From the NCBI GenBank assembly GCA_000002445.1, contig CP000066.1:1120001-1184000 (forward strand): a DNA stretch of 64,000 bases, written 5' to 3'. The stretch comes from Trypanosoma brucei (lineage: Eukaryota). The position numbers and the translations under genes are program-made. Shown piece by piece: positions 1,590-40,790 of the stretch; the first letter of the stretch is position 1; each line of letters starts with the position of its first letter. The notes below the pieces were generated by a model. That model saw nothing but the letters and a program-made list of their open reading frames with translations. It searched no databases and was not told where the DNA came from.

Positions 1590-1740
1590 AACTCCCCTTC
1601 TTTTCCCTTCCCTTCCCTTTCCTTCCCTATCCAAAGGCGGCTAACAAAAAGAAAAAAAAAGAAGAGCATGAGGAGGAGGAGGAGGAGGAGGAGGAGGGAA
1701 AACAAAAACAAAAACAAACACAAACACACACACAAGGAGG
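1590..1740. repeat. simple-sequence block: (CCCTT)-type polypyrimidine, (GAG)n about 10 units at about 1668-1698, (CA)n/(CAAA)n at about 1700-1735
   Basis: Read directly in the sequence immediately 3' of the AP-1 sigma stop codon. Confidence 0.8.
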
Positions 1741-2645: not shown

Positions 2646-3510
2646 GTGGCCCAGGGCGGTGGGGAAACGGAAGGGTGTGTGTTTGTATGCTTTTGGGGCC
2701 GCCTGATTTGTCAGGGTGGCCCAGGGCGGTGGGGAAACGGAAGGGTGTGTGTTTGTATGCTTTTGGGGCCGCCTGATTTGTCAGGGTGGCCCAGGGCGGT
2801 GGGGAAACGGAAGGGTGTGTGTTTGTCTGCTTTTGGGGCCGCCTGATTTGTCAGGGTGGCCCAGGGCGGTGGGGAAATGGAAGGGTGTGTGTTTGTATGC
2901 TTTTGGGGCCGCCTGATTTGTCAGGGTGGCCCAGGGCGGTGGGGAAATGGAAGGGTGTGTGTTTGTATGCTTTTGGGGCCGCCTGATTTGTCAGGGTGGC
3001 CCAGGGCGGTGGGGAAACGGAAGGGTGTGTGTTTGTATGCTTTTGGGGCCGCCTGATTTGTCAGGGTGGCCCAGGGCGGTGGGGAAACGGAAGGGTGTGT
3101 GTTTGTATGCTTTTGGGGCCGCCTGATTTGTCAGGGTGGCCCAGGGCGGTGGGGAAATGGAAGGGTGTGTGTTTGTATGCTTTTGGGGCCGCCTGATTTG
3201 TCAGGGTGGCCCAGGGCGGTGGGGAAACGGAAAGGTGTGTGTTTGTATGCTTTTGGGGCAGCCTGATTTGTCAGGGTGGCCCAGGGCGGCGGGGAAACGG
3301 AAGGGTGTGTGTTTGTATGCTTTTGGGGCCGCCTGATTTGTCAGGGTGGCCCAGGGCGGTGGGGAAACGGAAGGGTGTGTGTTTGTATGCTTTTGGGGCA
3401 GCCTGATTTGTCAGGGTGGCCCAGGGCGGTGGGGAAACGGAAGGGTGTGTGTTTGTATGCTTTTGGGGCCGCCTGATTTGTCAGGGTGGCCCAGGGCGGT
3501 GGGGAAATGG
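2646..3510 (+). repeat. tandem array, 70-bp unit x about 12.4 copies, G-rich on plus strand (consensus GGTGGCCCAGGGCGGTGGGGAAACGGAAGGGTGTGTGTTTGTATGCTTTTGGGGCCGCCTGATTTGTCAG)
   Basis: Exact 70-nt periodicity is visible (ORF-track pseudo-ORFs start every 70 nt: 2646, 2716 ... 3346). Units are about 98% identical, with a few point variants (AAACGG/AAATGG, GTATGC/GTCTGC, GGGCC/GGGCA). Each unit carries four G3-4 tracts. Confidence 0.95.
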
Positions 3511-6500: not shown

Positions 6501-7209
6501 CGCCACCAACCGAAGCTCACGGCCAATTTTAAACGGGTCGAAATGCGGTTTCGAAGGTCCCACAGCCGCGCGGCTTCGCGCTAACGAAGAACCTCTATAC
6601 GATCCGATGGCGGATTTTCGGGTGCCACAGAAAACGATATCCCACGCGGGGGAGCAACGCCCAGCCGCCCGCGGAAATTCCGAGGGGCGCTGACGCGCGA
6701 CGGGAGCGCCGTTCGGCGAATGGAACGTCTCCGGGTCCCTCTTTACCTGCGGTCCACACTACCTTCAAAATATTTGCGGGCACCTTCCCGACGAGACCTG
6801 TGCAGACAAAGTTGCAGTTCATCCAACCCAGCTTGAAACACAAAGAAACGAAAAGCAAGCATCTACGAAACCCGCGAAGCAGTGACAGCAATAACGGAGC
6901 AACTCACCCGCAGCAATCTAGGCACAGTAGATGAGTTGAGCCATCTCTTTCTTTCTTTTCAGTTACCTTACGGCAGCCCCAGGTGCACGTCCGCAAGGTA
7001 AACGCTAATAGAGGTCAGAACCATGTCGTATCGGTTGCGACGTACTTCTATCCCTTTTTCTTCGTAGTGTACCGGTCTTCCTTCACCCCATTACCTTACC
7101 TTCGCTCCCTTCCTTCAATCCCCTTTGTGGCGCAGAAGCGCCTTGCGCTTGCCGATGCCAGTCCCAGTCCATATTGAATTCGCAACTCCTCTGCAGTGCC
7201 TTTGGACCC

Positions 7210-10200: not shown

Positions 10201-13200
10201 CGCTTCCTGCAGGTGCTGAAGCAGCAACTGATCAGCACCACCATGGGTTGCTACCCGAAAGAGTGCCCTAACGTGGCCCTTTGCGTTACTCCTCCTTATG
10301 AGGCTTCGCTCACACATCGGCTTCGACGTTGCCGATAAACCCCCAGCGTTGTGTGCACGAAGGGCCAGGCTTAACCCGATGCCGGGCTCGACCGTGCCGT
10401 ACGTCGGCTGTTCAACGATGAAACGCTCGGCATGTTCCCGCAAGGCGATGGGGGAGCCTTGCTCTGCTAGCTGGGCCCAATGCACTGCAAAAGAGACGGC
10501 ATCACTCAACTGTTTTCGTCGTTCCGGGGATTCCGGATCCGCAGCGACGGCGGGGGGCTCCAACATTTGCTTTGATTGGCAGTAAAGCTCCACCTCTGCT
10601 GCACTTCCCTTTTCAAGCACGCCGATGACGTCCCACAGAAGTGGAAGAGCCTGGCAAGTCCCCACAAACGACGGGAAGGCTGATATAATTTTACTTAGTA
10701 TTTCTTTGGCGGAGCGCCTTACTGATTGAACGGCGAAACCATATAATAAGACGAGTTGTGGTACGTCCGCCTCGATCCGTTTCGCGGCCGTGTCGGGAGA
10801 CGTGGCTTTCAACGCTGAGAGATACCGATTTGTTGCAGCAGCCGTTAGGCACGACGTTGCTGCCCGGAAATCTGCACTAGCGTCGAACTCACAAATTTCG
10901 AACCGGTGGTACTGTGCAATAGTTGAGATGAAGCCGCAGGAAGCTCGGAGGATTTCGAGGGTTGCCAGCGCATGAAAAAGAAAAAGTTCAGAAAACGGCA
11001 ATCGGCGCCCCACCGACGATACACCAGGGCAGCAGTCTTCCAGGTATTGCAGCAACCCCTTTCTGTAAGGCTTTATGGCGTGGCTGTCAGTGCTGTAGTT
11101 GCGCAAATGACGTTCCAAAAGTTCAATATCACTCATGACCTGTTGGTAATCGGTGGATCGCATGCGCAAAAGCTGTGGTGATAAAGAGGCAAGGAGGCGC
11201 ACGCACTTCGTTTGGTTCCAAGACAACACGTACTCACCCCCACGGGGTTGCTTAACATCTGATGATCCCTCCGCACCTTTTCCCTCAGCTTGCGTTAGGA
11301 GCATCACCTTGGAAGTAAAGCCATAATACGTAAGCATCAGCCAATAGGAGCGCAGCTGGGCGGCGTCGCTGTCATCATAGAGTGGAAGACTCATGCTATT
11401 AGGCTGAATGCCACTGTGGTGCATGAAAGAGTCTGTACTTTCCAACTGCTTGAACCTCTGCACGTTATCACGGTAACTCTTGAGACACTGTACGTCTTTT
11501 TCAGGCAAAAGTGTGAGAAGCTGGCAGAGCAGACACAACGGTTGCAGGAACAGCGAAAGCGTCGCAAGGGCCACCTCGCTCATATCGGAACGCATATGGT
11601 GACCGTTCTGCGTTTCCTTCCCACCGTCAATGTTAGTGTCGTAAATAATCCCGGAGCCTGGCCACAAACAGTTGATCATGCATCGGAGGACCGAGTGTAG
11701 TAGGAGACGCAGTACCTTTCCCTCGTTGTTGATCGCCTCAACAAGAGGCGATTTGTTCCATTCATCGCCGGCATCGCCCGAAGCATTGTGGGGTAAATCT
11801 CGAAGCGCCTCACGGACCATCGCAAGGACACGATCATGGCAACGCCGAGTAAGGTGCCAAAAAGCGTCCGCCGTGACCTGTAGTTCGTTGCCTGGAAACT
11901 GTTTATTTGTATGCGACAATTCGATACACCGAGTGTGGGCTCGCAGAGTGTCCTCCACCGTATCAAACAGCAGCTGGGTGTACCGACGTAGACTCTCGTA
12001 AGGCAACGGATTGCACAACGAATGGTGCCTCGACAAGAGAACACGGTTCATCATCTCAAAGCACACAGAAAAGCGCAGCGATACGTCGACGGGACCTTGA
12101 TCCAAACGTCCCTCAACGTTACTCCCTGCTTCATCAGCACCGTCCCCCAACTGCTGCAACCCGTCATTTCGCGTTACAGCATCGTTGACCTCTGTGCTGA
12201 CAAGGGCGCGTATGTAAGCATTTGTGGCACACAGTCCCTGCAAGCAGAGCGCGGCGGTTCGGCTTCTCGTCTCCACATTGGATGATGTGGCAATTCCCAG
12301 ATTTCCCGCCCTTAAAATGCAACGAATGAGTTCATGTGTTACTTGTTCAACACCACCGTAAAATTTGTTGGAAAATTGTATTCTCCTCATTTTGGCCCCT
12401 AAGACCGAGAAGGGATGTGTACTTGTCGACAGCGCTCTGCCATCGGTGGATGCGACGAACGCCAGAACTTTTGCACTGTGCTCCGCAATATCTTGGTGAA
12501 GCGACACCACCGGCCCAGCCGTACCAATCGCGGCGAAAGCACTCTTGGGTAGGAGAAGAAACTTAACGATGTTGCCAATCACCCCGAGGCGAAGGGCGTC
12601 TTCCTCCATGGAGGGCACATACCCCGCATCACCTGAGCCGTTACCACGCTCGTGTTGTTGTCCGCTGTGCGCGTTGTGTTGGCAAGTGCTGTTGACTATG
12701 GCGTAGCACCGAATACGCTCCAGCTCCGCTTGGAGCAAGCTCACCACTACAGCACGCAGGCTGGTCCCATACAATACAAAACTACGATTTTGAACCTTGC
12801 CCCATTTGTCCTCAGAATCCTGAAGAACCGCCCAGACGCCTTCAATGAGCGTTTCGGCTTCGACAACCTCCCTTCGGTCAACAAAATTAGATATTGAACA
12901 GCAGGAAGTAGTTCCCCCATCCCCATTTCCCCCACTACGTGCTGCACTGTCGCCCGGACAGGAAATTGACATCGCAGTTTCCTTCAGCCACCCCATTAGA
13001 AGCCTCAGCGTAGCTGCCACTAATCGCGCCTGGATGCCCTCCCTTCGCTGGAGGCCCCTGAGTATATATTCCGGCCGTAACAGCGTTAGACACCAATAGC
13101 GCAATTTGGTATAGCAGACACCATGAACCGATGATAGTGCTTCCACAAGGTAACACAAAAGCTCCTTGTATGGAGGATCCCTTCGATGTGAGGATGTAAC

Positions 13201-27608: not shown

Positions 27609-27731
27609 TTACGTCTCCCGCAGATGTGTCGCAAAAACGGAGAATCCGTAAGTCGATGATACAACAAGACCAGCATAAACTCCTGCCATCAGCATGCGTA
27701 CTCGCGCAAGGTCATCGACAAGGTAAACCAT
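27609..27731 (-). pseudogene. 5' gene remnant (40 codons) of a nodulin-like MFS copy, marking the downstream end of the tandem array
   Basis: Reverse-complement reads ATGGTTTACCTTGTCGATGACCTTGCGCGAGTACGCATGCTGATGGCAGGAGTTTATGCTGGTCTTGTTGTATCATCGACTTACGGATTCTCCGTTTTTGCGACACATCTGCGGGAGACGTAA. This gives MVYLVDDLARVRMLMAGVYAGLVVSSTYGFSVFATHLRET*, identical to the N-terminus of copies B/C. It is preceded by the same conserved upstream block (27732 to about 27975) and followed by unrelated sequence. Confidence 0.75.
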
Positions 27732-28264
27732 AACTGCAGGGACTGCGGGTCGGTTTGTTCTGAGTGGAAGTGCGCAAGTAGTAGCTCTATTTTACTCTTT
27801 GTGTGGAAACATTTGTCAGGTAAAGAAGAAAAATGAGTAATAAGAGTGTTAGAAAAGGAATCCATAGAGAGGTAAAGGGAAGCACTGATATGTATCACTG
27901 CCGTGTTGCAACGGCTTCGTGACGGAAAAAACAAAGGTTTCGCAGAGACTGGGAAACTGACCACGTAAAATCATTCAAATAGCGTTTTATTTTTACCACA
28001 AGGTGGAAGAGCGAAACGTGGCTACCTGCTCACACGAACAAAACACTCTAAGGTAAAACAAAATCCGCCCATCAACCACTAAGAGTGATCAAATGGCACA
28101 CCCTCTTGCTTGCAAGAAGCAACACAATGTGGGAGTGAGGAGCAATTATTATATTGATTAGTAGTCACATCAAGGATAAATTCAACGTAACAAGATTTAT
28201 GAGATAGAGGCAAATGCATATTTTCAATTTAGAGTTCAGGTACGGCAACAGCTGTAAAACAACC

Positions 28265-30052
28265 CTACTGCTGCGCTGCTCCGCCACTGTGTGAGCCCCC
28301 TTCATTTGGCTGCCCCGCATCCTCTGTAACAGGAGCAGCGACACCACTCATCTCATCAGCTGGCTCATTACACCTGTTCTGCTCAGCATTAATGAAACGC
28401 GAAAATCTGAAGTGGACAATCGCTGCAGCGATTACTGCCACAATATTGACACCCATCAGTATGAGCATCTGGTTTTTGACACACGAAGGGTTTTTACACT
28501 CGGGTTTCGTACCAAGCTTCTCAGCCTCAGCATCGTACATACCACCGAACATGAAGAGGTTGAGCGCTATCGTTGACACAATTCCGGAGGAAAAGCCGAA
28601 GTTATAGTGCTTTCCCAAATCCTGTGAATACATTATACGAAACGCAAGCACAACACTTCCCCAACCTGCTCCGTTACCCAGCGACCCAAGGAAGAAAGGA
28701 AGGATCAGCGCGTTAGCGGGAAGCAACGCGAAGAGCAGGAAGGCGATGCACAACATCAGAGGGCAAAATGGGAGCGCAATTGTTGTGGGAAACGTTTTAA
28801 GCCCCTCTCGCTGCCGCCGTGTCAGCACCATATCCAGATATCCCATAGACATGCGACCAACAGCACTGCCAACAGATATCATGGTGATATACAGTGTTAG
28901 AGTGGAGCTTTTCTTCTCACCGTAACTTTTGCTCTCATAAATTTGTGCAGCGTTCATCTGCATGACGACCGCAGTACCCCACACGCCGAAGCATGTAAGC
29001 CACATGCACCAAAGATCCACGGTAAGCAAGTGCTGCCAGAAGGACCCGCTGTACTGCGGCAATGGCTTCACCTCGTTCTTCGTTGTAGCTACCGCTGATT
29101 CGGTCACAACATCCTCCAGTGCCTCTCCAATTGTGTCCATATCCGTAGGGCGCACTGGAGTATATCGTCCAAGCCATTGAAACGGCAACGCAACGACACA
29201 AAATGATGCCATCATGAGCACTGCAATAATCGAAAAGGCCAAATAGGCAGCCGGAGGAAGCTTTACATATCCACCAATGAGTGATTGTGTGGTGAGAAAC
29301 AACAGCAGGCTGAGGACGAGTCCCACAGCTGTCTTCATCCTTCTGGGAGGCGCAGGCTGGTTCATGTATAACTGAAGTGTCTGCTGTCGCTTCGTCCACT
29401 CCTCTTCACTTAGCCGTTGCTTCCGCCACGCACAAGGAAAGTACATGGGAAGCCGAATGAGAACGAAGGCAATGAGTGACACGACCACCAACTGTATGGC
29501 AACAAAGTACGCGAAACCCGAGTAGTTGTTTTTTTCCACATCATCGGATGTGGTATCCTTAAACCACCCGTTGAAGTAAGCCATTAGCACTCCGGTACCG
29601 AGACCACCAATTGTCTTGGACACGAGCACAATGTAACCCCTGTCAAGTGGAAACTGCAGCATCAGTGGCATAACAGAACTTACATCCAAGATAGGAAATG
29701 CACAGTATACAAGGGCATTAAAAAAAGACAAAAGGCCAACGCCTGGACTCGCTATCTTTCTGTCGAAGGTGAGACCAAAAAGCAGGAAGCCCAAGAATCC
29801 AAGGAAACCAGCAATTGGCAGGACCACCATCGGACCAGCGTAATCGAACAGGGCGCCGCTGGGAAAACTGAAATACATAATGCAATTGCCAACGGTACTG
29901 ATAGTTGTAACTTCAGTTTGTGTTAAATTGAGTTTTTTCTTCAGGAATGGCGTGAAAATCGAAAAGCAGTATGCCTTTGAGACACCCAACTCCGCATACA
30001 TGCCTGACATCAGCATCCGCATACGGGCAAGGTCATCGACAAGGTAAACCAT
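28265..30052 (-). CDS. nodulin-like major facilitator superfamily membrane protein, array copy A (595 aa; N-term type alpha, C-term type long)
   Basis: ATG verified. About 12 predicted TM segments. The N-terminal domain matches the Nodulin-like pattern (Y-x-F-S...L-x-L-[ST]-Q-[ST]...ISTVG...G...G-x-L-x-D...P). C-terminal tail ...VTEDAGQPNEGGSHSGGAAQQ. Confidence 0.8.
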   Translation of the reverse strand: MVYLVDDLARMRMLMSGMYAELGVSKAYCFSIFTPFLKKKLNLTQTEVTTISTVGNCIMYFSFPSGALFDYAGPMVVLPIAGFLGFLGFLLFGLTFDRKIASPGVGLLSFFNALVYCAFPILDVSSVMPLMLQFPLDRGYIVLVSKTIGGLGTGVLMAYFNGWFKDTTSDDVEKNNYSGFAYFVAIQLVVVSLIAFVLIRLPMYFPCAWRKQRLSEEEWTKRQQTLQLYMNQPAPPRRMKTAVGLVLSLLLFLTTQSLIGGYVKLPPAAYLAFSIIAVLMMASFCVVALPFQWLGRYTPVRPTDMDTIGEALEDVVTESAVATTKNEVKPLPQYSGSFWQHLLTVDLWCMWLTCFGVWGTAVVMQMNAAQIYESKSYGEKKSSTLTLYITMISVGSAVGRMSMGYLDMVLTRRQREGLKTFPTTIALPFCPLMLCIAFLLFALLPANALILPFFLGSLGNGAGWGSVVLAFRIMYSQDLGKHYNFGFSSGIVSTIALNLFMFGGMYDAEAEKLGTKPECKNPSCVKNQMLILMGVNIVAVIAAAIVHFRFSRFINAEQNRCNEPADEMSGVAAPVTEDAGQPNEGGSHSGGAAQQ

Positions 30053-30300
30053 AACTGCAGGGACTGCGGGTCGGTTTGTTCTGAGTGGAAGTGCGCAAGT
30101 AGTAGCTCTATTTTACTCTTTGTGTGGAAACATTTGTCAGGTAAAGAAGAAAAATGAGTAATAAGAGTGTTAGAAAAGGAATCCATAGAGAGGTAAAGGG
30201 AAGCACTGATATGTATCACTGCCGTGTTGCAACGGCTTCGTGACGGAAAAAACAAAGGTTTCGCAGAGACTGGGAAACTGACCACGGAAAACCATTCAAA
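30053..30300 (-). promoter_or_regulatory. conserved upstream block (polypyrimidine tract + AG acceptor) repeated 5' of array copies A-D and of the gene remnant
   Basis: Minus-strand reads ...ccctttacctctctatggattccttttctaacactcttattactcatttttcttctttacctgacaaatgtttccacacaaagagtaaaatagag...ATG. Equivalent blocks at 27732 to about 27975, 32314 to about 32560, 34650 to about 34900, 36969 to about 37215. Absent upstream of copy E. Confidence 0.5.
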
Positions 30301-30561
30301 TAGCGTTTCTAAACTGTCGTGCAGAAAAGAATGAAGTAAAGGTAGGACCGTTGTAGGAAATATATATTTCGTGAATTTGTTAAAAGAAAAAAAAACAACA
30401 TCATAAAAAACGACAGATGGCAACACTACTCATGATAATGAAGCCGCCATTAAAAAAATAATGAAAAAAAAATAACGGTACAACGAAGTTTTGATTATAA
30501 AAGAAACCAAGCATAAAATATAACCCTACTGCACTCCCGTAATGTCACCGTGGTCACCTCC

Positions 30562-32313
30562 TTAATTTTCTTTTTCTGAATCCTCTGTAACAGGAGCAGC
30601 GACACCACTCATCTCATCAGCTGGCTCATTACACCTGTTCTGCTCAGCATTAATGAAACGCGAAAATCTGAAGTGGACAATCGCTGCACCGACCGCTGCC
30701 ACAACATTGACACCCATCAGTATGAGCATCTGGTTTTTGACACACGAAGGTTGCTTACACTCGGGTTTCGTACCAAGCTTCTCAGCCTCAGCATCGTACA
30801 TACCACCGAACATGAAGAGGTTGAGCGCTATCGTTGACACAATTCCGGAGGAAAAGCCGAAGTTATAGTGCTTTCCCAAATCCTGTGAATACATTATACG
30901 AAACGCAAGCACACCACTTCCCCAACCTGCTCCGTTACCCAAAGCCCCAAGGAAGAAAGGAAGGATCAGCGCGTTAGCGGGAAGCAACGCGAAGAGCAGG
31001 AAGGCGATGCACAACATCAGAGGGCAAAATGGGAGCGCAATTGTTGTGGGAAACGTTTTAAGCCCCTCTCGCTGCCGCCGTGTCAGCACCATATCCAGAT
31101 ATCCCATAGACATGCGACCAACAGCACTGCCAACAGACATCATGGTGATATACAGTGTTAGAGTGGAGCTTTTCTTCTCACCGTAACTTTTGCTCTCATA
31201 AATTTGGGCAGCGTTCATCTGCATGACAGTTCCAGTACCCCACATACCAAAGCATGTAAGCCACATGCACCAAAGATCCACGGTAAGCAAGTGCTGCCAG
31301 AAGGACCCACTGTACTGCGGCAATGGCTTCACCTCGTTCTTCGTTGTAGCCACCGCTGATTCGGTCACAACATCCTCCAGTGCCTCTCCAATTGTGTCCA
31401 TATCCGTAGGGCGCACTGGAGTATATCGTCCAAGCCATTGAAACGGCAACGCAACGACACAAAATGATGCCATCATGAGCACTGCAATAATCGAAAAGGC
31501 CAAATAGGCAGCCGGAGGAAGCTTTACATATCCACCAATGAGTGATTGTGTGGTGAGAAACAACAGCAGGCTGAGGACGAGTCCCACAGCTATCTTCATC
31601 CTTCTGGGAGGCGCAGGCTGGTTCATGTATAACTGAAGTGTCTGCTGTCGCTTCGTCCACTCCTCTTCACTTAGCCGTTGCTTCCGCCACGCACAAGGAA
31701 AGTACATGGGCATGCGAGTTACGCTGAGAGCAATGAGTGACACGACCACCAACTGTATGGCAACAAAGTACGCGAAACCCGAGTAGTTGTTATTGCTCAA
31801 GTCATCGGATGTGGTATCCTTAAACCACCCGTTGAAGTAAGCCATTAGCACCCCGGTACCGAGACCACTGATTGTCTTGGACACGAGCACAACATAACCC
31901 CTGTCAAGTGGAAACTGCAGCATCAGTGGCATAATCGTCGAAACATCCAACCACGGCGTCCCCAGATAAAGAATAGCGTTAAAAGTGGAGAAGAGACCGA
32001 CGCTGGGGTTCGCTATCTTTCCATCGAAGGTGAGGCCAAAAAGCAGGAAGCCCAAGAATCCAAGGAAACCAGCAATTGGCAGGACCACCATCGGACCAGC
32101 GTAATCGAACAGGGCACCACCAATAAAACTGCAGTAACCGATGCAATTGCCAACGGTACTGATAGTTGTAATGTCACTCTGTGAAAGACGATATTTCTCC
32201 CGCAGATGTGCCGCAAAAACAGAGAATCCGTAAGTCGATGATACAACAAGACCAGCATAAACTCCTGCCATCAGCATGCGTACTCGCGCAAGGTCATCGA
32301 CAAGGTAAACCAT
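30562..32313 (-). CDS. nodulin-like MFS membrane protein, array copy B (583 aa; N-term type beta, C-term ...VTEDSEKEN)
   Basis: ATG verified at 32311-32313. The core is >95% identical to the other copies. Unique short C-terminal tail and unique 3' flank (30427-30561). Confidence 0.8.
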   Translation of the reverse strand: MVYLVDDLARVRMLMAGVYAGLVVSSTYGFSVFAAHLREKYRLSQSDITTISTVGNCIGYCSFIGGALFDYAGPMVVLPIAGFLGFLGFLLFGLTFDGKIANPSVGLFSTFNAILYLGTPWLDVSTIMPLMLQFPLDRGYVVLVSKTISGLGTGVLMAYFNGWFKDTTSDDLSNNNYSGFAYFVAIQLVVVSLIALSVTRMPMYFPCAWRKQRLSEEEWTKRQQTLQLYMNQPAPPRRMKIAVGLVLSLLLFLTTQSLIGGYVKLPPAAYLAFSIIAVLMMASFCVVALPFQWLGRYTPVRPTDMDTIGEALEDVVTESAVATTKNEVKPLPQYSGSFWQHLLTVDLWCMWLTCFGMWGTGTVMQMNAAQIYESKSYGEKKSSTLTLYITMMSVGSAVGRMSMGYLDMVLTRRQREGLKTFPTTIALPFCPLMLCIAFLLFALLPANALILPFFLGALGNGAGWGSGVLAFRIMYSQDLGKHYNFGFSSGIVSTIALNLFMFGGMYDAEAEKLGTKPECKQPSCVKNQMLILMGVNVVAAVGAAIVHFRFSRFINAEQNRCNEPADEMSGVAAPVTEDSEKEN

Positions 32314-32861
32314 AACTGCAGGGACTGCGGGTCGGTTTGTTCTGAGTGGAAGTGCGCAAGTAGTAGCTCTATTTTACTCTTTGTGTGGAAACATTTGTCA
32401 GGTAAAGAAGAAAAATGAGTAATAAGAGTGTTAGAAAAGGAATCCATAGAGAGGTAAAGGGAAGCACTGATATGTATCACTGCCGTGTTGCAACGGCTTC
32501 GTGACGGAAAAAACAAAGGTTTCGCAGAGACTGGGAAACTGACCACGTAAAATCATTCAAACAGCGTTTCTAAACTGTCGTGCAGTAAAGAATAAAGTAA
32601 AGGAAGAGCGAAACGTGGCTGCCTGCTCACACGAACAAAACACTCTAAGGTAAAACAAAATCCACCCATCAACCACTAAGAGTGATCAAACGGCACACCC
32701 TCTTGTTTGCAAGAAGCAACACAATGTGGGAGTGAGGAGCAATTATTATATTGATTAGTAGTCACATCAAGGATAAATTCAACGTAACAAGATTTATGAG
32801 ATAGAGGCAAATGCATATTTTCAATTTAGAGTTCAGGTACGGCAACAGCTGTAAAACAACC

Positions 32862-34649
32862 CTACTGCTGCGCTGCTCCGCCACTGTGTGAGCCCCCTTC
32901 ATTTGGCTGCCCCGCATCCTCTGTAACAGGAGCAGCGACACCACTCATCTCATCAGCTGGCTCATTACACCTGTTCTGCTCAGCATTAATGAAACGCGAA
33001 AATCTGAAGTGGACAATCGCTGCAGCGACCGCTGCCACAACATTGACACCCATCAGTATGAGCATCTGGTTTTTGACACACGAAGGGTTTTTACACTCGG
33101 GTTTCGTACCAAGCTTCTCAGCCTCAGCATCGTACATACCACCGAACATGAAGAGGTTGAGCGCTATTGTCGCTGCGACACCGGAGGAAAAGCCGAAGTT
33201 ATAGTGCTTTCCCAAATCCTGTGAATACATTATACGAAACGCAAGCACACCACTTCCCCAACCTGCTCCGTTGCCCAAAGCCCCAAGGAAGAAAGGAAGG
33301 ATCAGCGCGTTAGCGGGAAGCAACGCGAAGAGCAGGAAGGCGATGCACAACATCAGAGGGCAAAATGGGAGCGCAATTGTTGTGGGAAACGTTTTAAGCC
33401 CCTCTCGCTGCCGCCGTGTCAGCACCATATCCAGATATCCCATAGACATGCGACCAACAGCACTGCCAACAGACATCATGGTGATATACAGTGTTAGAGT
33501 GGAGCTTTTCTTCCCACCGTAACTTTTGCTCTCATAAATTTGGGCAGCGTTCATCTGCATGACAGTTCCAGTACCCCACATACCAAAGCATGTAAGCCAC
33601 ATGCACCAAAGATCCACGGTAAGCAAGTGCTGCCAGAAGGACCCACTGTACTGCGGCAATGGCTTCACCTCGTTCTTCGTTGTAGCTACCGCTGATTCGG
33701 TCACAACATCCTCCAGTGCCTCTCCAATTGTGTCCATATCCGTAGGGCGCACTGGAGTATATCGTCCAAGCCATTGAAACGGCAACGCAACGACACAAAA
33801 TGATGCCATCATGAGCACTGCAATAATCGAAAAGGCCAAATAGGCAGCCGGAGGAAGCTTTACATATCCACCAATGAGTGATTGTGTGGTGAGAAACAAC
33901 AGCAGGCTGAGGACGAGTCCCACAGCTATCTTCATCCTTCTGGGAGGCGCAGGCTGGTTCATGTATAACTGAAGTGTCTGCTGTCGCTTCGTCCACTCCT
34001 CTTCACTTAGCCGTTGCTTCCGCCACGCACAAGGAAAGTACATGGGCATGCGAGTTACGCTGAGAGCAATGAGTGACACGACCACCAACTGTATGGCAAC
34101 AAAGTACGCGAAACCCGAGTAGTTGTTATTGCTCAAGTCATCGGATGTGGTATCCTTAAACCACCCGTTGAAGTAAGCCATTAGCACCCCGGTACCGAGA
34201 CCACTGATTGTCTTGGACACGAGCACAACATAACCCCTGTCAAGTGGAAACTGCAGCATCAGTGGCATAATCGTCGAAACATCCAACCACGGCGTCCCCA
34301 GATAAAGAATAGCGTTAAAAGTGGAGAAGAGACCGACGCTGGGGTTCGCTATCTTTCCATCGAAGGTGAGGCCAAAAAGCAGGAAGCCCAAGAATCCAAG
34401 GAAACCAGCAATTGGCAGGACCACCATCGGACCAGCGTAATCGAACAGGGCACCACCAATAAAACTGCAGTAACCGATGCAATTGCCAACGGTACTGATA
34501 GTTGTAATTTCACTCTGTGAAAGACGATATTGCTTGCGCATGTAGACGGAAAAAAGGGAGAATCCGTAAGTCGATGATACAACAAGACCAGCATAAACTC
34601 CTGCCATCAGCATGCGTACTCGCGCAAGGTCATCGACAAGGTAAACCAT
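32862..34649 (-). CDS. nodulin-like MFS membrane protein, array copy C (595 aa; N-term type beta, C-term type long)
   Basis: ATG verified at 34647-34649. 3' flank 32547-32861 is identical in type to that of copies A and E. Confidence 0.8.
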   Translation of the reverse strand: MVYLVDDLARVRMLMAGVYAGLVVSSTYGFSLFSVYMRKQYRLSQSEITTISTVGNCIGYCSFIGGALFDYAGPMVVLPIAGFLGFLGFLLFGLTFDGKIANPSVGLFSTFNAILYLGTPWLDVSTIMPLMLQFPLDRGYVVLVSKTISGLGTGVLMAYFNGWFKDTTSDDLSNNNYSGFAYFVAIQLVVVSLIALSVTRMPMYFPCAWRKQRLSEEEWTKRQQTLQLYMNQPAPPRRMKIAVGLVLSLLLFLTTQSLIGGYVKLPPAAYLAFSIIAVLMMASFCVVALPFQWLGRYTPVRPTDMDTIGEALEDVVTESAVATTKNEVKPLPQYSGSFWQHLLTVDLWCMWLTCFGMWGTGTVMQMNAAQIYESKSYGGKKSSTLTLYITMMSVGSAVGRMSMGYLDMVLTRRQREGLKTFPTTIALPFCPLMLCIAFLLFALLPANALILPFFLGALGNGAGWGSGVLAFRIMYSQDLGKHYNFGFSSGVAATIALNLFMFGGMYDAEAEKLGTKPECKNPSCVKNQMLILMGVNVVAAVAAAIVHFRFSRFINAEQNRCNEPADEMSGVAAPVTEDAGQPNEGGSHSGGAAQQ

Positions 34650-35210
34650 AACTGCAGGGACTGCGGGTCGGTTTGTTCTGAGTGGAAGTGCGCAAGTAGT
34701 AGCTCTATTTTACTCTTTGTGTGGAAACATTTGTCAGGTAAAGAAGAAAAATGAGTAATAAGAGTGTTAGAAAAGGAATCCATAGAGAGGTAAAGGGAAG
34801 CACTGATATGTATCACTGCCGTGTTGCAACGGCTTCGTGACGGAAAAAACAAAGGTTTCGCAGAGACTGGGAAACTGACCACGTAAAATCATTCAAATAG
34901 CGTTTTATTTTTACCACAAAGTGGAAGAGAGAAAAAGAAGAGTTAGGAAAAAAAAAACGTTCGAAGACAGAAAAAATAGTAACCCACTAATCACTGAGAG
35001 TGGATATACAACATACTTTTAATACTAAAAAAAAATTTAAAAACTTATTTCTTGAATCGGGCCGCACCCTCACGCAGAAACAACAACCACATCTAACAGA
35101 AAAGAAAACATACGATTTTTAACACAAAGAAGGATAACACACGGTAAGACAGAAAAATACTATGGAAATATGCAAAAAATACTATTTCGTTTTTCTTAAC
35201 CCCCCAAAAA

Positions 35211-36968
35211 TTATTGCTTCTTTCCTGAATGTCCACCGCTAGTAACAGGAGCAGCGACACCACTCATCTCATCAGCTGGCTCATTACACCTGTTCTGCTC
35301 AGCATTAATGAAACGCGAAAATCTGAAGTGGACAATCGCTGCACCGACCGCTGCCACAACATTGACACCCATCAGTATGAGCATCTGGTTTTTGACACAC
35401 GAAGGTTGCTTACACTCGGGTTTCGTACCAAGCTTCTCAGCCTCAGCATCGTACATACCACCGAACATGAAGCGGTTGAGCGCTATTGTCGCTGCGACAC
35501 CGGAGGAAAAGCCGAAGTGGTAGTGCTTTCCCAAATCCTGTGAATACATTATACGAAACGCAAGCACAACACTTCCCCAACCTGCTCCGTTACCCAAAGC
35601 CCCAAGGAAGAAAGGAAGGATCAGCGCGTTAGCGGGAAGCAACGCGAAGAGCAGGAAGGCGATGCACAACATCAGAGGGCAAAATGGGAGCGCAATTGTT
35701 GTGGGAAACGTTTTAAGCCCCTCTCGCTGCCGCCGTGTCAGCACCATATCCAGATATCCCATAGACATGCGACCAACAGCACTGCCAACAGATATCATGG
35801 TGATATACAGTGTTAGAGTGGAGCTTTTCTTCTCACCGTAACTTTTGCTCTCATAAATTTGGGCAGCGTTCATCTGCATGACGACCGCAGTACCCCACAC
35901 GCCAAAGCATGTAAGCCACATGCACCAAAGATCCACGGTAAGCAAGTGCTGCCAGAAGGACCCGCTGTACTGCGGCAATGGCTTCACCTCGTTCTTCGTT
36001 GTAGCTACCGCTGATTCGGTCACAACATCCTCCAGTGCCTCTCCAATTGTGTCCATATCCGTAGGGCGCACTGGAGTATATCGTCCAAGCCATTGAAACG
36101 GCAACGCAACGACACAAAATGATGCCATCATGAGCACTGCAATAATCGAAAAGGCCAAATAGGCAGCCGGAGGAAGCTTTACATATCCACCAATGAGTGA
36201 TTGTGTGGTGAGAAACAACAGCAGGCTGAGGACGAGTCCCACAGCTATCTTCATCCTTCTGGGAGGCGCAGGCTGGTTCATGTATAACTGAAGTGTCTGC
36301 TGTCGCTTCGTCCACTCCTCTTCACTTAGCCGTTGCTTCCGCCACGCACAAGGAAAATACATGGGCATGCGAGTTACGCTGAGAGCAATGAGTGACACGA
36401 CCACCAACTGTATGGCAACAAAGTACGCGAAACCCGAGTAGTTGTTTTTTTCCACATCATCGGATGTGGTATCCTTAAACCACCCGTTGAAGTAAGCCAT
36501 TAGCACCCCGGTACCGAGACCACTGATTGTCTTGGACACGAGCACAACATAACCCCTGTCAAGTGGAAACTGCAGCATCAGTGGCATAATCGTCGAAACA
36601 TCCAACCAAGAAAATGTGCAATTTACGAGAGCATTGTAAAAGCAAAAGAGACCGACGCTGGGGTTCGCTATCTTTCCATCGAAGGTGAGACCAAAAAGCA
36701 GGAAGCCCAAGAATCCAAGGAAACCAGCAATTGGCAGGACCACCATCGGACCAGCGTAATCGAACAGGGCACCACCAGGGAAACTGAAGTACAGCATGCA
36801 GGTTCCAACGGTACTGATAGTTGTAATGTCTCCCTGTGTCATATTAAATTTGCTCCTTAAGAATGGCGTGAAAATCGAAAAGCAGTATGCCTTTGAGACA
36901 CCCAATCCAGCATAAACTCCTGCCATCAGCATCCGCATACGGGCAAGGTCATCGACAAGGTAAACCAT
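35211..36968 (-). CDS. nodulin-like MFS membrane protein, array copy D (585 aa; N-term type alpha, C-term ...PVTSGGHSGKKQ)
   Basis: ATG verified at 36966-36968. Unique C-terminal tail and unique AT-rich 3' flank (34883-35210). Confidence 0.8.
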   Translation of the reverse strand: MVYLVDDLARMRMLMAGVYAGLGVSKAYCFSIFTPFLRSKFNMTQGDITTISTVGTCMLYFSFPGGALFDYAGPMVVLPIAGFLGFLGFLLFGLTFDGKIANPSVGLFCFYNALVNCTFSWLDVSTIMPLMLQFPLDRGYVVLVSKTISGLGTGVLMAYFNGWFKDTTSDDVEKNNYSGFAYFVAIQLVVVSLIALSVTRMPMYFPCAWRKQRLSEEEWTKRQQTLQLYMNQPAPPRRMKIAVGLVLSLLLFLTTQSLIGGYVKLPPAAYLAFSIIAVLMMASFCVVALPFQWLGRYTPVRPTDMDTIGEALEDVVTESAVATTKNEVKPLPQYSGSFWQHLLTVDLWCMWLTCFGVWGTAVVMQMNAAQIYESKSYGEKKSSTLTLYITMISVGSAVGRMSMGYLDMVLTRRQREGLKTFPTTIALPFCPLMLCIAFLLFALLPANALILPFFLGALGNGAGWGSVVLAFRIMYSQDLGKHYHFGFSSGVAATIALNRFMFGGMYDAEAEKLGTKPECKQPSCVKNQMLILMGVNVVAAVGAAIVHFRFSRFINAEQNRCNEPADEMSGVAAPVTSGGHSGKKQ

Positions 36969-37501
36969 AACTGCAGGGACTGCGGGTCGGTTTGTTCTGA
37001 GTGGAAGTGCGCAAGTAGTAGCTCTATTTTACTCTTTGTGTGGAAACATTTGTCAGGTAAAGAAGAAAAATGAGTGATAAGAGTGTTAGAAAAGGAATCC
37101 ATAGAGAGGTAAAGGGAAGCACTGATATGTATCACTGCCGTGTTGCAACGGCTTCGTGACGGAAAAAACAAAGGTTTCGCAGAGAATGGGAAACTGACCA
37201 CGTAAAATCATTCAAATAGCGTTTTATTTTTACCACAAAGTGGAAGAGCGAAACGTGGCTGCCTGCTCACACGAACAAAACACTCTAAGGTAAAACAAAA
37301 TCCGCCCATCAACCACTAAGAGTGATCAAATGGCACACCCTCTTGCTTGCAAGAAGCAACACAATGTGGGAGTGAGGAGCAATTATTATATTGATTAGTA
37401 GTCACATCAAGGATAAATTCAACGTAACAAGATTTATGAGATAGAGGCAAATGCATATTTTCAATTTAGAGTTCAGGTACGGCAACAGCTGTAAAACAAC
37501 C

Positions 37502-39289
37502 CTACTGCTGCGCTGCTCCGCCACTGTGTGAGCCCCCTTCATTTGGCTGCCCCGCATCCTCTGTAACAGGAGCAGCGACACCACTCATCTCATCAGCTGG
37601 CTCATTACACCTGTTCTGCTCAGCATTAATGAAACGCGAAAATCTGAAGTGGACAATCGCTGCAGCGACCGCTGCCACAATATTGACACCCATCAGTATG
37701 AGCATCTGGTTTTTGACACACGAAGGGTTTTTACACTCGGGTTTCGTACCAAGCTTCTCAGCCTCAGCATCGTACATACCACCGAACATGAAGAGGTTGA
37801 GCGCTATCGTTGACACAATTCCAGAACTGTAGCCGAAGTGGTAGTGCTTTCCCAAATCCTGTGAATACATCGTACGAATTACAAGCACACAACACCCCCA
37901 ACCTGCTCCGTTGCCCAAAGCCCCAAGGAAGAAAGGAAGGATCAGCGCGTTAGCGGGAAGCAACGCGAAGAGCAGGAAGGCGATGCACAACATCAGAGGA
38001 CCAAATGGGAGCGCAATTGTTGTGGGAAACGTTTTAAGCCCCTCTCGCTGCCGCCGTGTCAGCACCATATCCGTGAACCCCATAGACACGCGACCAACAG
38101 CACTGCCAACAGACATCATGGTGATATACAGTGTTAGAGTGGAGCTTTTCTTCCCGCCGTAACTTTTGCTCTCATAAATTTGTGCAGCGTTCATCTGCAT
38201 GACAGTTCCAGTACCCCACACGCCGAAGCATGTAAGCCACATGCACCAAAGATCCACGGTAAGCAAGTGCTGCCAGAAGGACCCACTGTACTGCGGCAAT
38301 GGCTTCACCTCGTTCTTCGTTGTAGCCACCGCTGATTCGGTCACAACATCCTCCAGTGCCTCTCCAATTGTGTCCATATCCGTAGGGCGCACTGGAGTAT
38401 ATCGTCCAAGCCATTGAAACGGCAACGCAACGACACAAAATGATGCCATCATGAGCACTGCAATAATCGAAAAGGCCAAATAGGCAGCCGGAGGAAGCTT
38501 TACATATCCGCCAATGAGTGATTGTGTGGTGAGAAACAACAGCAGGCTGAGGACGAGTCCCACAGCTATCTTCATCCTTCTGGGAGGCGCAGGCTGGTTC
38601 ATGTATAACTGAAGTGTCTGCTGTCGCTTCGTCCACTCCTCTTCACTTAGCCGTTGCTTCCGCCACGCACAAGGAAAGTACATGGGCATGCGAGTTACGC
38701 TGAGAGCAATGAGTGACACGATCAGCAATCTAGCGGCAATGAAGTACATGAAACCCGAGTAGTTGTTTTTTTCCACATCATCGGATGTGGTATCCTTAAA
38801 CCACCCGTTGAAGTAAGCCATTAGCACCCCGGTACCGAGACCACTGATTGTCTTCAACACGAGCACAACATAACCCCTGTCAAGTGGAAACTGCAATATC
38901 GCCGGCATGATCGTTGCAACATCTAATGTTGGGATCCCCGAATAAACTATTGCGTCGAAGACACAGAAAAGGGTTAAAGTCGGGTTCGCTATCTTTCCAT
39001 CGAAGGTGAGACCAAAAAGCAGGAAGCCCAAAGACCCTAGAAACCCACCAAGGGGGAGTAGCACCATCGGACCAGCGTAATCGAACAGAGCACCGATTGG
39101 AAAGCTGCAGTAACCGATGCAATTGCCGACGGTACTGATAGTTGCAATTTCACTTTGCGACAGACGATACTTTTTTCGCAGAAGAACGGCCATTAATGTG
39201 AAGCAATATGGGGCCGCTGTAGAAGCCATTGTATACACCCCGGAAGCTAACATGCGTACTCGCGCAAGGTCATCGATAATATACGTCAT
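37502..39289 (-). CDS. nodulin-like MFS membrane protein, array copy E (595 aa; divergent N-term type gamma MTYIIDDLARVRMLASGVYTMASTAAPYCF..., C-term type long)
   Basis: ATG verified at 39287-39289. First copy in transcription order. Unique upstream flank (39290 to about 39520) lacks the conserved block. About 60 substitutions are concentrated in the first roughly 190 residues. Confidence 0.8.
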   Translation of the reverse strand: MTYIIDDLARVRMLASGVYTMASTAAPYCFTLMAVLLRKKYRLSQSEIATISTVGNCIGYCSFPIGALFDYAGPMVLLPLGGFLGSLGFLLFGLTFDGKIANPTLTLFCVFDAIVYSGIPTLDVATIMPAILQFPLDRGYVVLVLKTISGLGTGVLMAYFNGWFKDTTSDDVEKNNYSGFMYFIAARLLIVSLIALSVTRMPMYFPCAWRKQRLSEEEWTKRQQTLQLYMNQPAPPRRMKIAVGLVLSLLLFLTTQSLIGGYVKLPPAAYLAFSIIAVLMMASFCVVALPFQWLGRYTPVRPTDMDTIGEALEDVVTESAVATTKNEVKPLPQYSGSFWQHLLTVDLWCMWLTCFGVWGTGTVMQMNAAQIYESKSYGGKKSSTLTLYITMMSVGSAVGRVSMGFTDMVLTRRQREGLKTFPTTIALPFGPLMLCIAFLLFALLPANALILPFFLGALGNGAGWGCCVLVIRTMYSQDLGKHYHFGYSSGIVSTIALNLFMFGGMYDAEAEKLGTKPECKNPSCVKNQMLILMGVNIVAAVAAAIVHFRFSRFINAEQNRCNEPADEMSGVAAPVTEDAGQPNEGGSHSGGAAQQ

Positions 39290-40790
39290 TTTGTGACCTT
39301 TCTGTGTGTACAGGTTGCACTATACTGTTTCGAGTTTGTAAGGGGAATGGGTATCGTTGTTGCTGAGGAATACTGCTTCCTTTCTTGGCTGGTTTTTGTT
39401 TTACTTTCGCATTACCTATCTGTAAGTTTGTTTTTGAAGAGTAGTTGATTGCTAATGGGCTATGCCGACACAGTTTGCTGTTAATTATTGTCGCTTCTGC
39501 TTTTTTTTAAAAAAAGAAAAAAATGCTCATCTTAAAACTGTTTAATATTCTTGGGGGGAGGGGAGTGTCTTCATTTCTTGCAGAGTACCTATGGCGCAGT
39601 ATTTGCTATTGTGGCCACACTTCGTGGCAGCAAAGCCCCTCAAACATCTCTGCTGCGAAGCACGATTACCAGCATTGTTATTTGGATTCATTTATGCGAT
39701 GCTTTGCATTTCCTCCCCCGACACGGCAGTCTTTAAGTGTTCGGGAGCTCCCTCGTGATGGCACCTCCTGGCAGCGTACTAAAATGTTTAGCGCAATTTT
39801 CGTTTGTTGCACGTCTCGATCTCTGAGGGCAATGACACTGGGAAGAACATGGAAAGGTTCCGGTCCCCAGCTCTTAGACCCTCATTATACCACGGGTAGT
39901 TGGTGGATCTAGCGCTTTGCCTCGGAAGGGAAAACTGTGCTCCCGCTGTCGCGATTTGTCAACATCGCAGCGTTACAAAGAAAAAAAGCGAAGGCGTACA
40001 AGTTAATGGGCAAACGGTTGTGTAAAATGTATGCCATGTGGGTGGGTGTGGAGAGGGGGGGGATAAAGGTGAGCACGGAAACGCTGACGGTACGCCAAAT
40101 GCATCAGCTTCAAGTTGTACGGCCATCGGCAGCGTAACGTTGTAATAGAGTTCCGTTTTTTAAAGGAAAAGACAAAGGGCAACAGCAAAACAATAGGGTT
40201 GTAAGGCATGCAGAGAGAAGAGTGAGAATAATTGGCCAAAACCAAGCACAGACACCAATCCCTCAACAGCACTAACCAGAGAGACAGCAACCAACGGCGA
40301 AGAAGAGCAATGGAAGGGAAAGTGCTAACGTAGTTTCAAGGTGATGCGTCCCGCGGTGCCATTAAAAGGACCGAGACTTGCCAGACACCAGCGCCCCACC
40401 GTGTGCAGTAAACAGAGACAAGGTGACCCACGAGTCACGAAAAATAAAGGGCGTGAACATCTCGTCCATACAGCATGGGGTGACTCACGTCACAAAGCCC
40501 AAACTACTGATGTTATCCACATCCCGGCGTGGTGGTCACCCGCTTCTATCAAGTGACTAGCTACTCGGCAGCAAAAGAATGGGGGGAGGAAGTGCTAGCA
40601 TAAACACTCATAATGAAGATCTTAGAGTTACAACAAAGGAGGGAAAGTGTGGGGAAGCATGCATAACATGCGCTCCGTGGGATTGTGTTACATGCCGTTC
40701 GCGAACAGGCAACTTCTTTAGTGTGTATTGGACCGCTGACAGAGACCAATTAAAATCATCCTCGGAACTTCCTTAAACCAGACTATCAGA

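What the first reader, a model, noticed from the sequence alone, without database searches (positions are those of the whole stretch)
30427..35210. Alternating 3'-flank classes within the array suggest copy-specific post-transcriptional regulation
Copies A, C and E are followed by one conserved 3' region of about 300 bp (e.g. 27965-28264, 32547-32861, 37202-37501). Copies B and D each have a unique, AT-richer 3' flank (30427-30561; 34883-35210). In trypanosomes gene expression is controlled almost entirely through 3'UTRs. Tandem arrays with distinct 3'UTRs are the classical route to life-cycle-stage-specific isoform expression, as in hexose transporters, PGK and aldolase. The same logic may apply to this transporter family.
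Basis: partly seen in the sequence, partly recalled or inferred. Interest (0 to 1): 0.5.

Follow-up and report, generated by a model that had tools for sequence, protein, structure and literature searches.

The report
Pyruvate-transporter gene array with three 3'UTR types
The five tandem pyruvate-transporter genes of Trypanosoma brucei carry three different 3'UTRs, and published array data show mRNA levels tracking UTR type across life-cycle stages, so this is a good but ordinary example of how trypanosomes regulate gene copies.

Summary
The window is T. brucei TREU927 chromosome 3 (offset 1,120,000). The array is the known TbPT pyruvate-transporter cluster, Tb927.3.4070-4110, on the minus strand and transcribed E>D>C>B>A.

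Copies A, C and E share one 3' block (97-100% identical, GC 0.40). B and D each have their own U-richer block (GC 0.33-0.34). Divergence starts inside the CDS, in the last 9-21 codons. It ends about 10-45 nt before the mapped poly(A) sites, so the blocks make up nearly the whole 3'UTRs.

Published poly(A) mapping puts the B, D and E flanks in mature mRNA. Published gene-specific microarray data track the classes:
- A and C are about 5-fold up in bloodstream forms, and E about 2-fold up.
- B is 2-fold up in procyclic forms.
- D is flat.

B and C have near-identical 5'UTR and CDS and differ by a roughly 430-bp gene-conversion tract. They therefore act as a natural UTR swap.

B carries a twin UA(U)6 (RBP10-type) element, conserved in two other T. 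brucei subspecies. A like element with the same spacing sits in one flank class of the T. vivax array.

This is a new example of a known kind, of modest interest.

The parts
37502..39289 (-). Copy E = Tb927.3.4110, 595 aa. First gene of the array, with its own unique 5' flank.
   Evidence: ORF. Exact match to XP_844003.1. Coordinate match.
35211..36968 (-). Copy D = Tb927.3.4100, 585 aa, C-terminal tail ...VTSGGHSGKKQ.
32862..34649 (-). Copy C = Tb927.3.4090, 595 aa. The CDS is B-like up to about 160 nt before the stop, then alpha-type.
30562..32313 (-). Copy B = Tb927.3.4080, 583 aa, C-terminal tail ...VTEDSEKEN.
28265..30052 (-). Copy A = Tb927.3.4070 (PT1), 595 aa. Last full copy of the array.
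37178..37501 (-). 3'UTR of E, alpha class, 324 nt, GC 0.398, no UA(U)6 motif.
   Evidence: Poly(A) site chr3:1157178 (Kolev 2010 supplement)..
34859..35210 (-). 3'UTR of D, delta class, 352 nt, GC 0.330, U 46%. UA(U)6 motifs start at 35181 and 34978. The distal third is a diverged homologue of alpha.
   Evidence: Poly(A) site chr3:1154859..
32523..32861 (-). 3'UTR of C, 339 nt. Alpha class for ~269 nt, then a B-like distal segment (32554-32592).
   Evidence: Annotated UTR 1152523-1152861 (Trenaman 2024 supplement)..
30297..30561 (-). 3'UTR of B, beta class, 265 nt, GC 0.336, U 44%.
   Evidence: Poly(A) site chr3:1150297..
27941..28264 (-). 3'UTR of A, alpha class. The end is inferred by homology with E and was not mapped.
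   Evidence: 98-100% identity to the E flank in 100-nt windows. Poly(A) position is inferred.
30453..30476 (-). Twin UA(U)6 element in the B 3'UTR: GUUAUUUUUUUUUCAUUAUUUUUU. The two motifs start 14 nt apart. Candidate RBP10 site.
   Evidence: It is the only twin on the transcribed strand of the 64-kb window. It is conserved in gambiense and equiperdum. It matches 21 of 24 nt of the T. vivax class-2 flank.
32593..33025 (-). Alpha-type gene-conversion tract in copy C, flanked on both sides by B-like sequence.
   Evidence: Informative-site scan. Agrees with Jackson 2007, conversion of Tb17.3 by Tb17.5.
30053..30296 (-). Shared intergenic and 5' region: polypyrimidine tract, AG splice acceptor (first mRNA base at 30117) and 65-nt 5'UTR of A. 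Equivalent acceptors lie at 32378 (B), 34714 (C) and 37033 (D).
   Evidence: Splice acceptor sites chr3:1150117 and 1152378 (Kolev 2010 supplement). AG context. Identity across copies. The C and D positions are inferred from identity.
27609..27731 (-). Truncated sixth copy: a 40-codon ORF with a B-like N-terminus, preceded by a complete shared 5' region that supplies the processing signals for the A 3' end.
   Evidence: 116 of the first 120 nt are identical to B, and homology is lost after about 27610.

Best explanation
This is the TbPT pyruvate-transporter array of T. brucei. It is transcribed as part of one polycistron, and the five mRNAs are then given different fates by three classes of 3'UTR.

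- The alpha UTR (A, C, E) gives high mRNA in bloodstream forms and low mRNA in procyclic forms. Bloodstream forms must export large amounts of pyruvate.
- The beta UTR (B) gives the opposite bias. The most likely reason is that its twin UA(U)6 element is bound by the bloodstream-specific repressor RBP10.
- The delta UTR (D) gives roughly constant expression.

The alternating order is not itself a mechanism. It arose because a roughly 430-bp gene-conversion tract pasted the alpha tail and UTR onto a B-like copy, creating C.

What is shown:
- the identity of the locus;
- the UTR classes and their boundaries;
- inclusion of the flanks in mature mRNA;
- copy-specific mRNA levels that track UTR class;
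- the conversion tract.

What is inferred:
- that the UTRs cause the expression differences;
- that RBP10 acts on B;
- the factor that represses alpha in procyclics, which is unknown.
For: Identity of the locus:
- Exact protein and coordinate matches.
- Pfam PF06813, and orthologues named 'pyruvate transporter 0'.
- Tb927.3.4070 is PT1.

UTR classes.

Mapped processing sites place the class-specific blocks within the 3'UTRs, where they fill most of their length.

Expression:
- Jensen 2009 shows A and C about 5-fold up and E about 2-fold up in bloodstream forms, B 2-fold up in procyclics, and D flat. Only gene-specific probes were used.
- PT1 mRNA falls in a stumpy/procyclic-like drug-resistant line.
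- Tagged PT1 gives a much stronger signal in bloodstream forms; that study prioritised N-terminal tagging, which preserves the 3'UTR, though which end of PT1 was tagged was not checked.

Natural swap:
- B and C share an identical 5'UTR.
- Their CDS is mostly identical, apart from two short variable stretches.
- They differ in the tail and UTR, yet are reciprocally regulated.

Reporter hint: a fragment overlapping 197 nt of the C alpha UTR was enriched in a bloodstream-form positive reporter screen (log2FC 3.9, FDR 0.052).

RBP10 link:
- RBP10 binds UA(U)6 and destroys or represses procyclic-specific mRNAs in bloodstream forms, including PGKB, which has two motifs (PMC5568443).
- B has two motifs and alpha has none.
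- The B twin is conserved in gambiense and equiperdum.

Conservation:
- The class order is the same in gambiense and equiperdum.
- There are five orthologous pairs between T. b. brucei and T. b. gambiense (PMC2854126).
- The T. vivax array independently has a GC 0.40 motif-free flank class and a GC 0.31 class with a twin UA(U)6 at the same 14-nt spacing.
Against: - Only one per-copy expression dataset could be read, and it is a microarray. B and C have only 4 specific probes each, and the effect for B is 2-fold.
- D has UA(U)6 motifs but is not procyclic-biased. Its motifs are not conserved: 1 of 2 in gambiense and 0 in equiperdum. Its UTR is only 81-84% identical between subspecies.
- The gene IDs were not found in the held supplements of the RBP10 paper, so binding is untested.
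- No consensus element for bloodstream-specific UTRs is known (PMC8982893), so the alpha mechanism is open.
- The cloned TbPT0 (AFV15805) pairs a D-like N-terminus with an alpha tail. CDS/UTR pairing therefore varies between strains.
- The class-specific block also changes the protein tail, so UTR and protein effects are confounded.
Confidence: 0.65

Rival explanations
1. The flank classes are neutral debris of concerted evolution. Gene conversion and indel decay in a tandem array left three sequence variants with no regulatory meaning. The array differences then reflect probe behaviour or other features.
For: - Jackson 2007 documents conversion at exactly this 3' end and mosaic histories across the array.
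- My scans show mosaicism throughout.
- The D UTR is poorly conserved between subspecies.
- Alternation alone has P=0.1.
Against: - Expression tracks UTR class in all five copies, measured with gene-specific probes.
- B and C are near-identical apart from the 3' block yet reciprocally regulated.
- The B twin motif and the class order are conserved in three subspecies.
- T. vivax shows a parallel.
- The central CDS is homogenised to ~100%, while the UTR classes resist homogenisation.
Confidence: 0.15
2. The selected difference is the protein's cytosolic C-terminal tail (21, 9 or 11 class-specific residues). It would give isoform-specific trafficking, turnover or regulation, and the UTR divergence merely travels with it.
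For: - Class divergence starts inside the CDS.
- The conversion tract in C carries the tail and the UTR together.
- The cloned functional TbPT0 has the alpha tail.
Against: - A protein tail cannot explain differences in mRNA abundance.
- In T. vivax the two flank classes follow identical C-termini.
- The first ~45 nt of the B UTR is a decayed copy of the alpha tail. That looks like loss rather than a designed tail.

This rival is not exclusive of the main explanation.
Confidence: 0.15
3. The classes act mainly through mRNA processing (efficiency of polyadenylation or of downstream trans-splicing) rather than through stability or translation.
For: - The major poly(A) site of B lies 35 nt upstream of the homologous site used by D and E.
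- U-rich tracts in B and D could serve as extra polypyrimidine signals.
Against: - The polypyrimidine tract, AG acceptor and about 200 nt upstream of them are identical in all units.
- Processing differences would not readily give opposite stage biases.
Confidence: 0.05

Closest known systems
TbPT0-4 pyruvate transporter cluster of T. brucei (Sanchez 2013, J Biol Chem 288:14428; Tb927.3.4070-4110)
   Same: It is this locus. The proteins and coordinates are identical to the TREU927 genes. The nodulin-like domain PF06813 is present, and orthologues are named pyruvate transporter 0. From memory of the abstract, since the paper is not held: a five-member clustered family, up-regulated in bloodstream forms, and RNAi of the family is lethal.
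   Different: As far as I could read, the literature treats the family as bloodstream-up-regulated as a whole. The per-copy split by 3'UTR class, with B biased to procyclics and D flat, sits only in supplementary tables.
PGKB/PGKC of the T. brucei phosphoglycerate kinase array
   Same: - Adjacent co-transcribed paralogues have completely different 3'UTRs that determine stage regulation.
- The procyclic isoform's UTR carries two UA(U)6 motifs and is bound by RBP10 (PMC5568443).
   Different: - For PGK, reporter and binding experiments exist. Here there are none.
- The PGK isoforms also differ in compartment, whereas the PT copies differ mainly in the N-terminal variable region and a short tail.
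THT1/THT2 hexose transporter array
   Same: A transporter array with bloodstream-biased and procyclic-biased isoforms, also shaped by gene conversion (cited in Jackson 2007).
   Different: - THT isoforms lie in two blocks, each of several identical copies. Here the classes are interleaved.
- One class switch here can be traced to a single ~430-bp conversion tract.
Array Tb17 in Jackson 2007 (BMC Evol Biol 7:54): allelic gene conversion
   Same: The same array. [quoted passage not shown] I recover it at 32593-33025.
   Different: That paper treats the event as sequence evolution and does not link it to expression.

Membership tests
TbPT pyruvate-transporter array (Tb927.3.4070-4110) | Sequence identity to the annotated TREU927 genes and the same chromosomal position | tested here: met
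   E is an exact match. A-D are exact suffix matches to XP_843999-844002. Gene starts 1148265, 1150562, 1152862, 1155211 and 1157502 equal window coordinates plus 1,120,000.
TbPT pyruvate-transporter array (Tb927.3.4070-4110) | Nodulin-like MFS domain | tested here: met
   Precomputed PF06813 on the closest relatives at 88-99% identity and on the gambiense array genes.
TbPT pyruvate-transporter array (Tb927.3.4070-4110) | Pyruvate transport activity of each copy | not testable with these tools
   Reported only for TbPT0, which is a mosaic closest to D with an alpha tail.
Trypanosome tandem paralogues regulated by isoform-specific 3'UTRs (PGKB/C, THT1/2 type) | Co-oriented tandem paralogues with shared 5' processing signals | tested here: met
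   All five are on the minus strand. The last ~290 nt before each ATG is identical, and an AG acceptor is mapped 65 nt upstream of the ATG.
Trypanosome tandem paralogues regulated by isoform-specific 3'UTRs (PGKB/C, THT1/2 type) | Distinct 3'UTRs present in mature mRNAs | tested here: met
   Published poly(A) sites for B, D and E, and the annotated UTR for C. The class blocks fill most of each UTR.
Trypanosome tandem paralogues regulated by isoform-specific 3'UTRs (PGKB/C, THT1/2 type) | Copy-specific mRNA abundance differing between stages | tested here: met
   Jensen 2009 supplementary values with gene-specific probes. This is a single dataset.
Trypanosome tandem paralogues regulated by isoform-specific 3'UTRs (PGKB/C, THT1/2 type) | 3'UTR sufficient to confer the regulation on a reporter | not tested
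   The only hint is one alpha-UTR-containing fragment enriched in a bloodstream-form positive screen. The B versus C comparison is a natural but uncontrolled swap.
RBP10 target mRNAs | UA(U)6 motif(s) in the 3'UTR | tested here: met
   B has 2 (shuffle P 0.009), D has 2 (P 0.029), and alpha has 0. The B twin is conserved in 3 subspecies.
RBP10 target mRNAs | Higher mRNA in procyclic than in bloodstream forms | tested here: inconclusive
   B is 2-fold up in PF-log. D is flat.
RBP10 target mRNAs | Physical binding by RBP10, or a response to RBP10 depletion | not testable with these tools
   The gene IDs are absent from the held text of the Mugo & Clayton 2017 supplements.

The most novel reading that the evidence does not exclude
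Selection keeps two regulatory kinds of pyruvate-transporter gene apart, against the homogenising pull of gene conversion, across African trypanosomes. One kind has a bloodstream-type UTR. The other has a U-rich UTR with a twin UA(U)6 'procyclin-26mer-like' element. The same twin element with the same 14-nt spacing (21 of 24 nt identical) marks one flank class in both T. brucei and T. vivax, even though coding sequences cluster by species. Conversion tracts such as the one in copy C would then be a quick way to re-tune how many copies are bloodstream-type.
Probability: 0.3. Interest if true: 0.5.

Novelty: new member of a known kind. Interest (0 to 1): 0.3.

Why it matters
Pyruvate export is essential in bloodstream T. 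brucei, and the TbPT family is discussed as a drug target. It matters for target validation and for reading RNAi or knock-out phenotypes to know which copies are bloodstream-type (A, C, E), which is procyclic-biased (B) and which is constitutive (D).

The B/C pair is a ready-made UTR swap. It could be used to dissect an RBP10-type element and the still unknown signal that represses bloodstream-type mRNAs in procyclics.

Beyond that, this is one more instance of a well-established principle.

Tried and rejected
- Sanchez 2013 (PMC3656298) is not held. Its statements are cited from memory or through other papers.
- An exact look-up of the contigs encoding copy E found nothing.
- T. congolense array DNA could not be fetched.
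- Supplements: none are held for Siegel 2010. The gene IDs are absent from the held RBP10 supplements. The Jha 2014 tables are cut, leaving only a uORF entry for E. The acoziborole paper's supplements gave only SNP rows.
- A search for TbPT1-4 by name found no paper discussing per-copy regulation.
- The T. melophagium and T. cruzi loci were uninformative: fragmented gene models and no twin motif beside the transporter genes.
- No Rfam family lies in any flank, so an embedded ncRNA is rejected. There are no tRNAs.
- A two-gene duplication unit (alpha gene plus non-alpha gene) was considered as the source of the alternation. The B-like truncated sixth copy fits it. The N-terminal relationships (A~D, B=C) and the bounded conversion tract in C fit conversion better.
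- There is no significant similarity between alpha and T. vivax class 1, or among the central parts of the three T. brucei classes.

Full report
**What is there**

The region holds five tandem ORFs on the minus strand:
- A 28265-30052
- B 30562-32313
- C 32862-34649
- D 35211-36968
- E 37502-39289

Transcription runs E>D>C>B>A. After A comes a full intergenic unit and a truncated sixth copy, with its ATG at 27731, 40 codons and a B-like N-terminus.

Copy E is identical to T. brucei brucei TREU927 XP_844003.1. Copies A-D contain XP_843999-844002 as exact suffixes, because those NCBI models start at an internal Met 10-12 codons downstream. Gene starts listed by Jensen et al. 2009 for Tb927.3.4070-4110 equal the window coordinates plus 1,120,000.

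So A=Tb927.3.4070 (PT1), B=.4080, C=.4090, D=.4100 and E=.4110. The family carries Pfam PF06813 (nodulin-like), and orthologues in other trypanosomes are named 'pyruvate transporter 0'. This is the TbPT cluster of Sanchez 2013. That paper is not held and is cited through.

**Check of the observation**

Alignment of the five downstream regions and of whole repeat units confirms three classes.
- The A, C and E flanks are 97-100% identical for about 270 nt.
- The B and D flanks are each alone.
- About 290 nt before every next ATG is identical in all units.

GC of the 3'UTRs is 0.398 (E), 0.401 (C), 0.336 (B) and 0.330 (D). B and D are mainly U-richer.

Several refinements follow.
- Divergence begins within the CDS straight after ...AAPVT, giving three different C-terminal tails.
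- All-copy identity resumes at AAACGCT (E 37222, D 34903, C 32567, B 30306, A 27985).
- The B-specific flank is therefore about 255 nt, not 135 nt.
- The first ~45 nt of the B UTR is a decayed copy of the alpha coding tail, created by an earlier stop.
- The distal third of the D UTR is a diverged homologue of alpha.
- The central parts of the three classes show no significant similarity.

Strict alternation has a chance probability of 0.1 for five copies. The same order is nevertheless found in T. b. gambiense DAL972 and T. b. equiperdum. Jackson 2010 counts five orthologous pairs between T. b. brucei and T. b. gambiense.

**Are the flanks UTRs?**

Kolev et al. 2010 (supplement) mapped splice acceptor sites at chr3:1150117 and 1152378. 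These are window 30117 and 32378, which lie 65 nt upstream of the first ATG, just after an AG that follows a polypyrimidine tract.

The same supplement mapped major poly(A) sites at:
- 1150297 for B (265-nt UTR)
- 1154859 for D (352 nt)
- 1157178 for E (324 nt)

The database UTR of C is 1152523-1152861, or 339 nt (Trenaman 2024 supplement). The class-specific blocks therefore fill nearly the whole of each 3'UTR, and the B and D flanks are in mature mRNA. No Rfam family lies in any flank.

**Does expression follow the classes?**

Jensen et al. 2009 kept only gene-specific 60-mer probes. Signals for cultured BF / slender / stumpy / PF-log / PF-stationary were:
- A: 24190/28387/18950/4084/4646
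- C: 9918/8497/6459/1847/2362
- E: 9554/11396/11430/5369/6156
- B: 10555/11170/12028/21632/15496
- D: 9936/7354/9899/6786/12241

A and C appear in that paper's bloodstream-up list (5.3x and 5.1x). B appears in its procyclic-up list (2x). The alpha copies are thus bloodstream-biased, B is procyclic-biased and D is flat.

Other data agree. PT1 mRNA falls in a stumpy/procyclic-like drug-resistant line. Tagged PT1 is much brighter in bloodstream forms, in a study that prioritised N-terminal tagging because it preserves the 3'UTR. A fragment overlapping 197 nt of the C alpha UTR was enriched in a bloodstream-form positive reporter screen (log2FC 3.9, FDR 0.052).

**A natural UTR swap**

Sliding-window identity shows that B and C share an identical 5'UTR. 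Their CDS is mostly identical over the first ~1450 alignment columns, apart from the N-terminal variable stretch at columns 100-250.

An informative-site scan finds that C carries alpha-type sequence from about 33025 (160 nt before its stop) to about 32593 (269 nt after it). B-like sequence lies on both sides of this tract. This is a bounded ~430-bp gene-conversion tract. It matches the event Jackson 2007 reported for this array ('Tb17'), conversion of Tb17.3 by Tb17.5 at the C-terminus and 3'UTR.

B and C are reciprocally regulated. The 3' block is therefore by far the best candidate for the determinant. The alternating order is a by-product of this event, not a mechanism.

**Mechanism**

RBP10 is a bloodstream-specific RNA-binding protein. 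It binds UA(U)6 in 3'UTRs and represses and destabilises procyclic-specific mRNAs. PGKB, the procyclic member of the PGK array, has two such motifs and is RBP10-bound, whereas most PGKC mRNA is unbound (PMC5568443).

The motif counts here are as follows.
- The B UTR has two UA(U)6 motifs 14 nt apart (30453-30476).
- D has two dispersed motifs.
- Alpha has none.
- The transcribed strand of the whole 64-kb window has only 11 motifs and a single twin, the one in B.

The B twin is conserved in gambiense and equiperdum. The D motifs are not.

I therefore propose RBP10-mediated repression of B in bloodstream forms. This is inference, with confidence about 0.4. How alpha is repressed in procyclics is unknown, and no consensus for bloodstream-specific UTRs has been found in general (PMC8982893).

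**Cross-species parallel**

The T. vivax array (L003) also has two 3'-proximal flank classes upstream of a shared 222-nt 5' region.
- Class 1 follows copies 1-3. It is 336 nt, has GC 0.40 and contains no UA(U)6.
- Class 2 follows copies 4-7. It is 199 nt, has GC 0.31 and carries a twin UA(U)6 at the same 14-nt spacing.

All eight motifs in that 21.7-kb locus belong to these four twins. The only significant similarity between the two species' flanks is this element: 21 of 24 nt, z 3.7, with 0 of 300 shuffles reaching the score. In T. vivax the C-termini are identical across classes, which argues that the UTR rather than the protein tail is what differs functionally. The sequence is low-complexity, so this is suggestive, not proof.

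**Limits**

- One microarray dataset carries the expression argument.
- D does not behave as a stage-specific copy, and its UTR is poorly conserved (81-84% identity).
- The cloned TbPT0 (AFV15805) pairs a D-like N-terminus with an alpha tail, so CDS/UTR pairing differs between strains.
- No reporter, half-life or RBP10-binding data for these UTRs could be found.

**Verdict**

The locus, its gene conversion and its bloodstream up-regulation are already in the literature. The link between UTR class and per-copy stage bias, and the twin UA(U)6 element, appear not to have been spelled out. This is a new member of a known kind (PGKB/PGKC, THT1/THT2), of modest interest.

Noticed in passing
window 39820-39886 (-): An H/ACA snoRNA, TB3Cs2H1 (Rfam RF01545, 91 bits), lies about 530 nt upstream of the ATG of copy E. 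This region is where the E 5' flank differs from all other copies. Kolev 2010 lists 'new transcripts' Tb3.NT.52 and Tb3.NT.53 nearby.
   Followed up: partly
window 27609-27731 (-): A truncated sixth array copy: 40 codons with a B-like N-terminus, preceded by a complete shared 5' region and splice acceptor (predicted at 27796). It should give a spliced transcript with a tiny ORF, and it supplies the downstream signals for polyadenylation of copy A.
   Followed up: partly
L003 (T. vivax SOPI01000639.1) 4814-5149 and 11759-11957: The T. vivax pyruvate-transporter array has two 3'-flank classes arranged in blocks (copies 1-3 versus copies 4-7). The U-rich class carries a twin UA(U)6 with the same 14-nt spacing as T. 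brucei copy B.
   Followed up: partly
window 30023-30052, 32278-32313, 34614-34649, 36939-36968: The NCBI protein models for A-D start at an internal Met, 10-12 codons downstream of the first ATG, whereas E uses the first ATG. The mapped splice acceptor 65 nt upstream of the first ATG is compatible with the longer ORFs. The N-termini of A-D therefore look under-annotated in those records.
   Followed up: partly
window 39401-39412 (-): The Jha 2014 supplement lists a 12-nt uORF in the 5'UTR of Tb927.3.4110 (copy E), with ribosome-footprint counts. Only E has this 5'UTR, so E may have an extra translational control layer.
   Followed up: no
P0076 (AFV15805, TbPT0) versus window copies: The functionally characterised TbPT0 is a mosaic of the TREU927 copies: D-like at residues 1-170, B/C-like at 172-174, A-like at 196-201, with an alpha-type tail. 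This points to strain-level reshuffling by gene conversion.
   Followed up: partly
window 2646-3507: A 70-bp tandem repeat of 12.3 copies (98% matches), G-rich on the plus strand. It sits in a ~6-kb stretch (871-7209) with no ORF of 200 aa or more, and it produces the GC-skew spike at 3-4 kb. Kolev 2010 lists a new transcript, Tb3.NT.49, at chr3:1123626 (window 3626).
   Followed up: no
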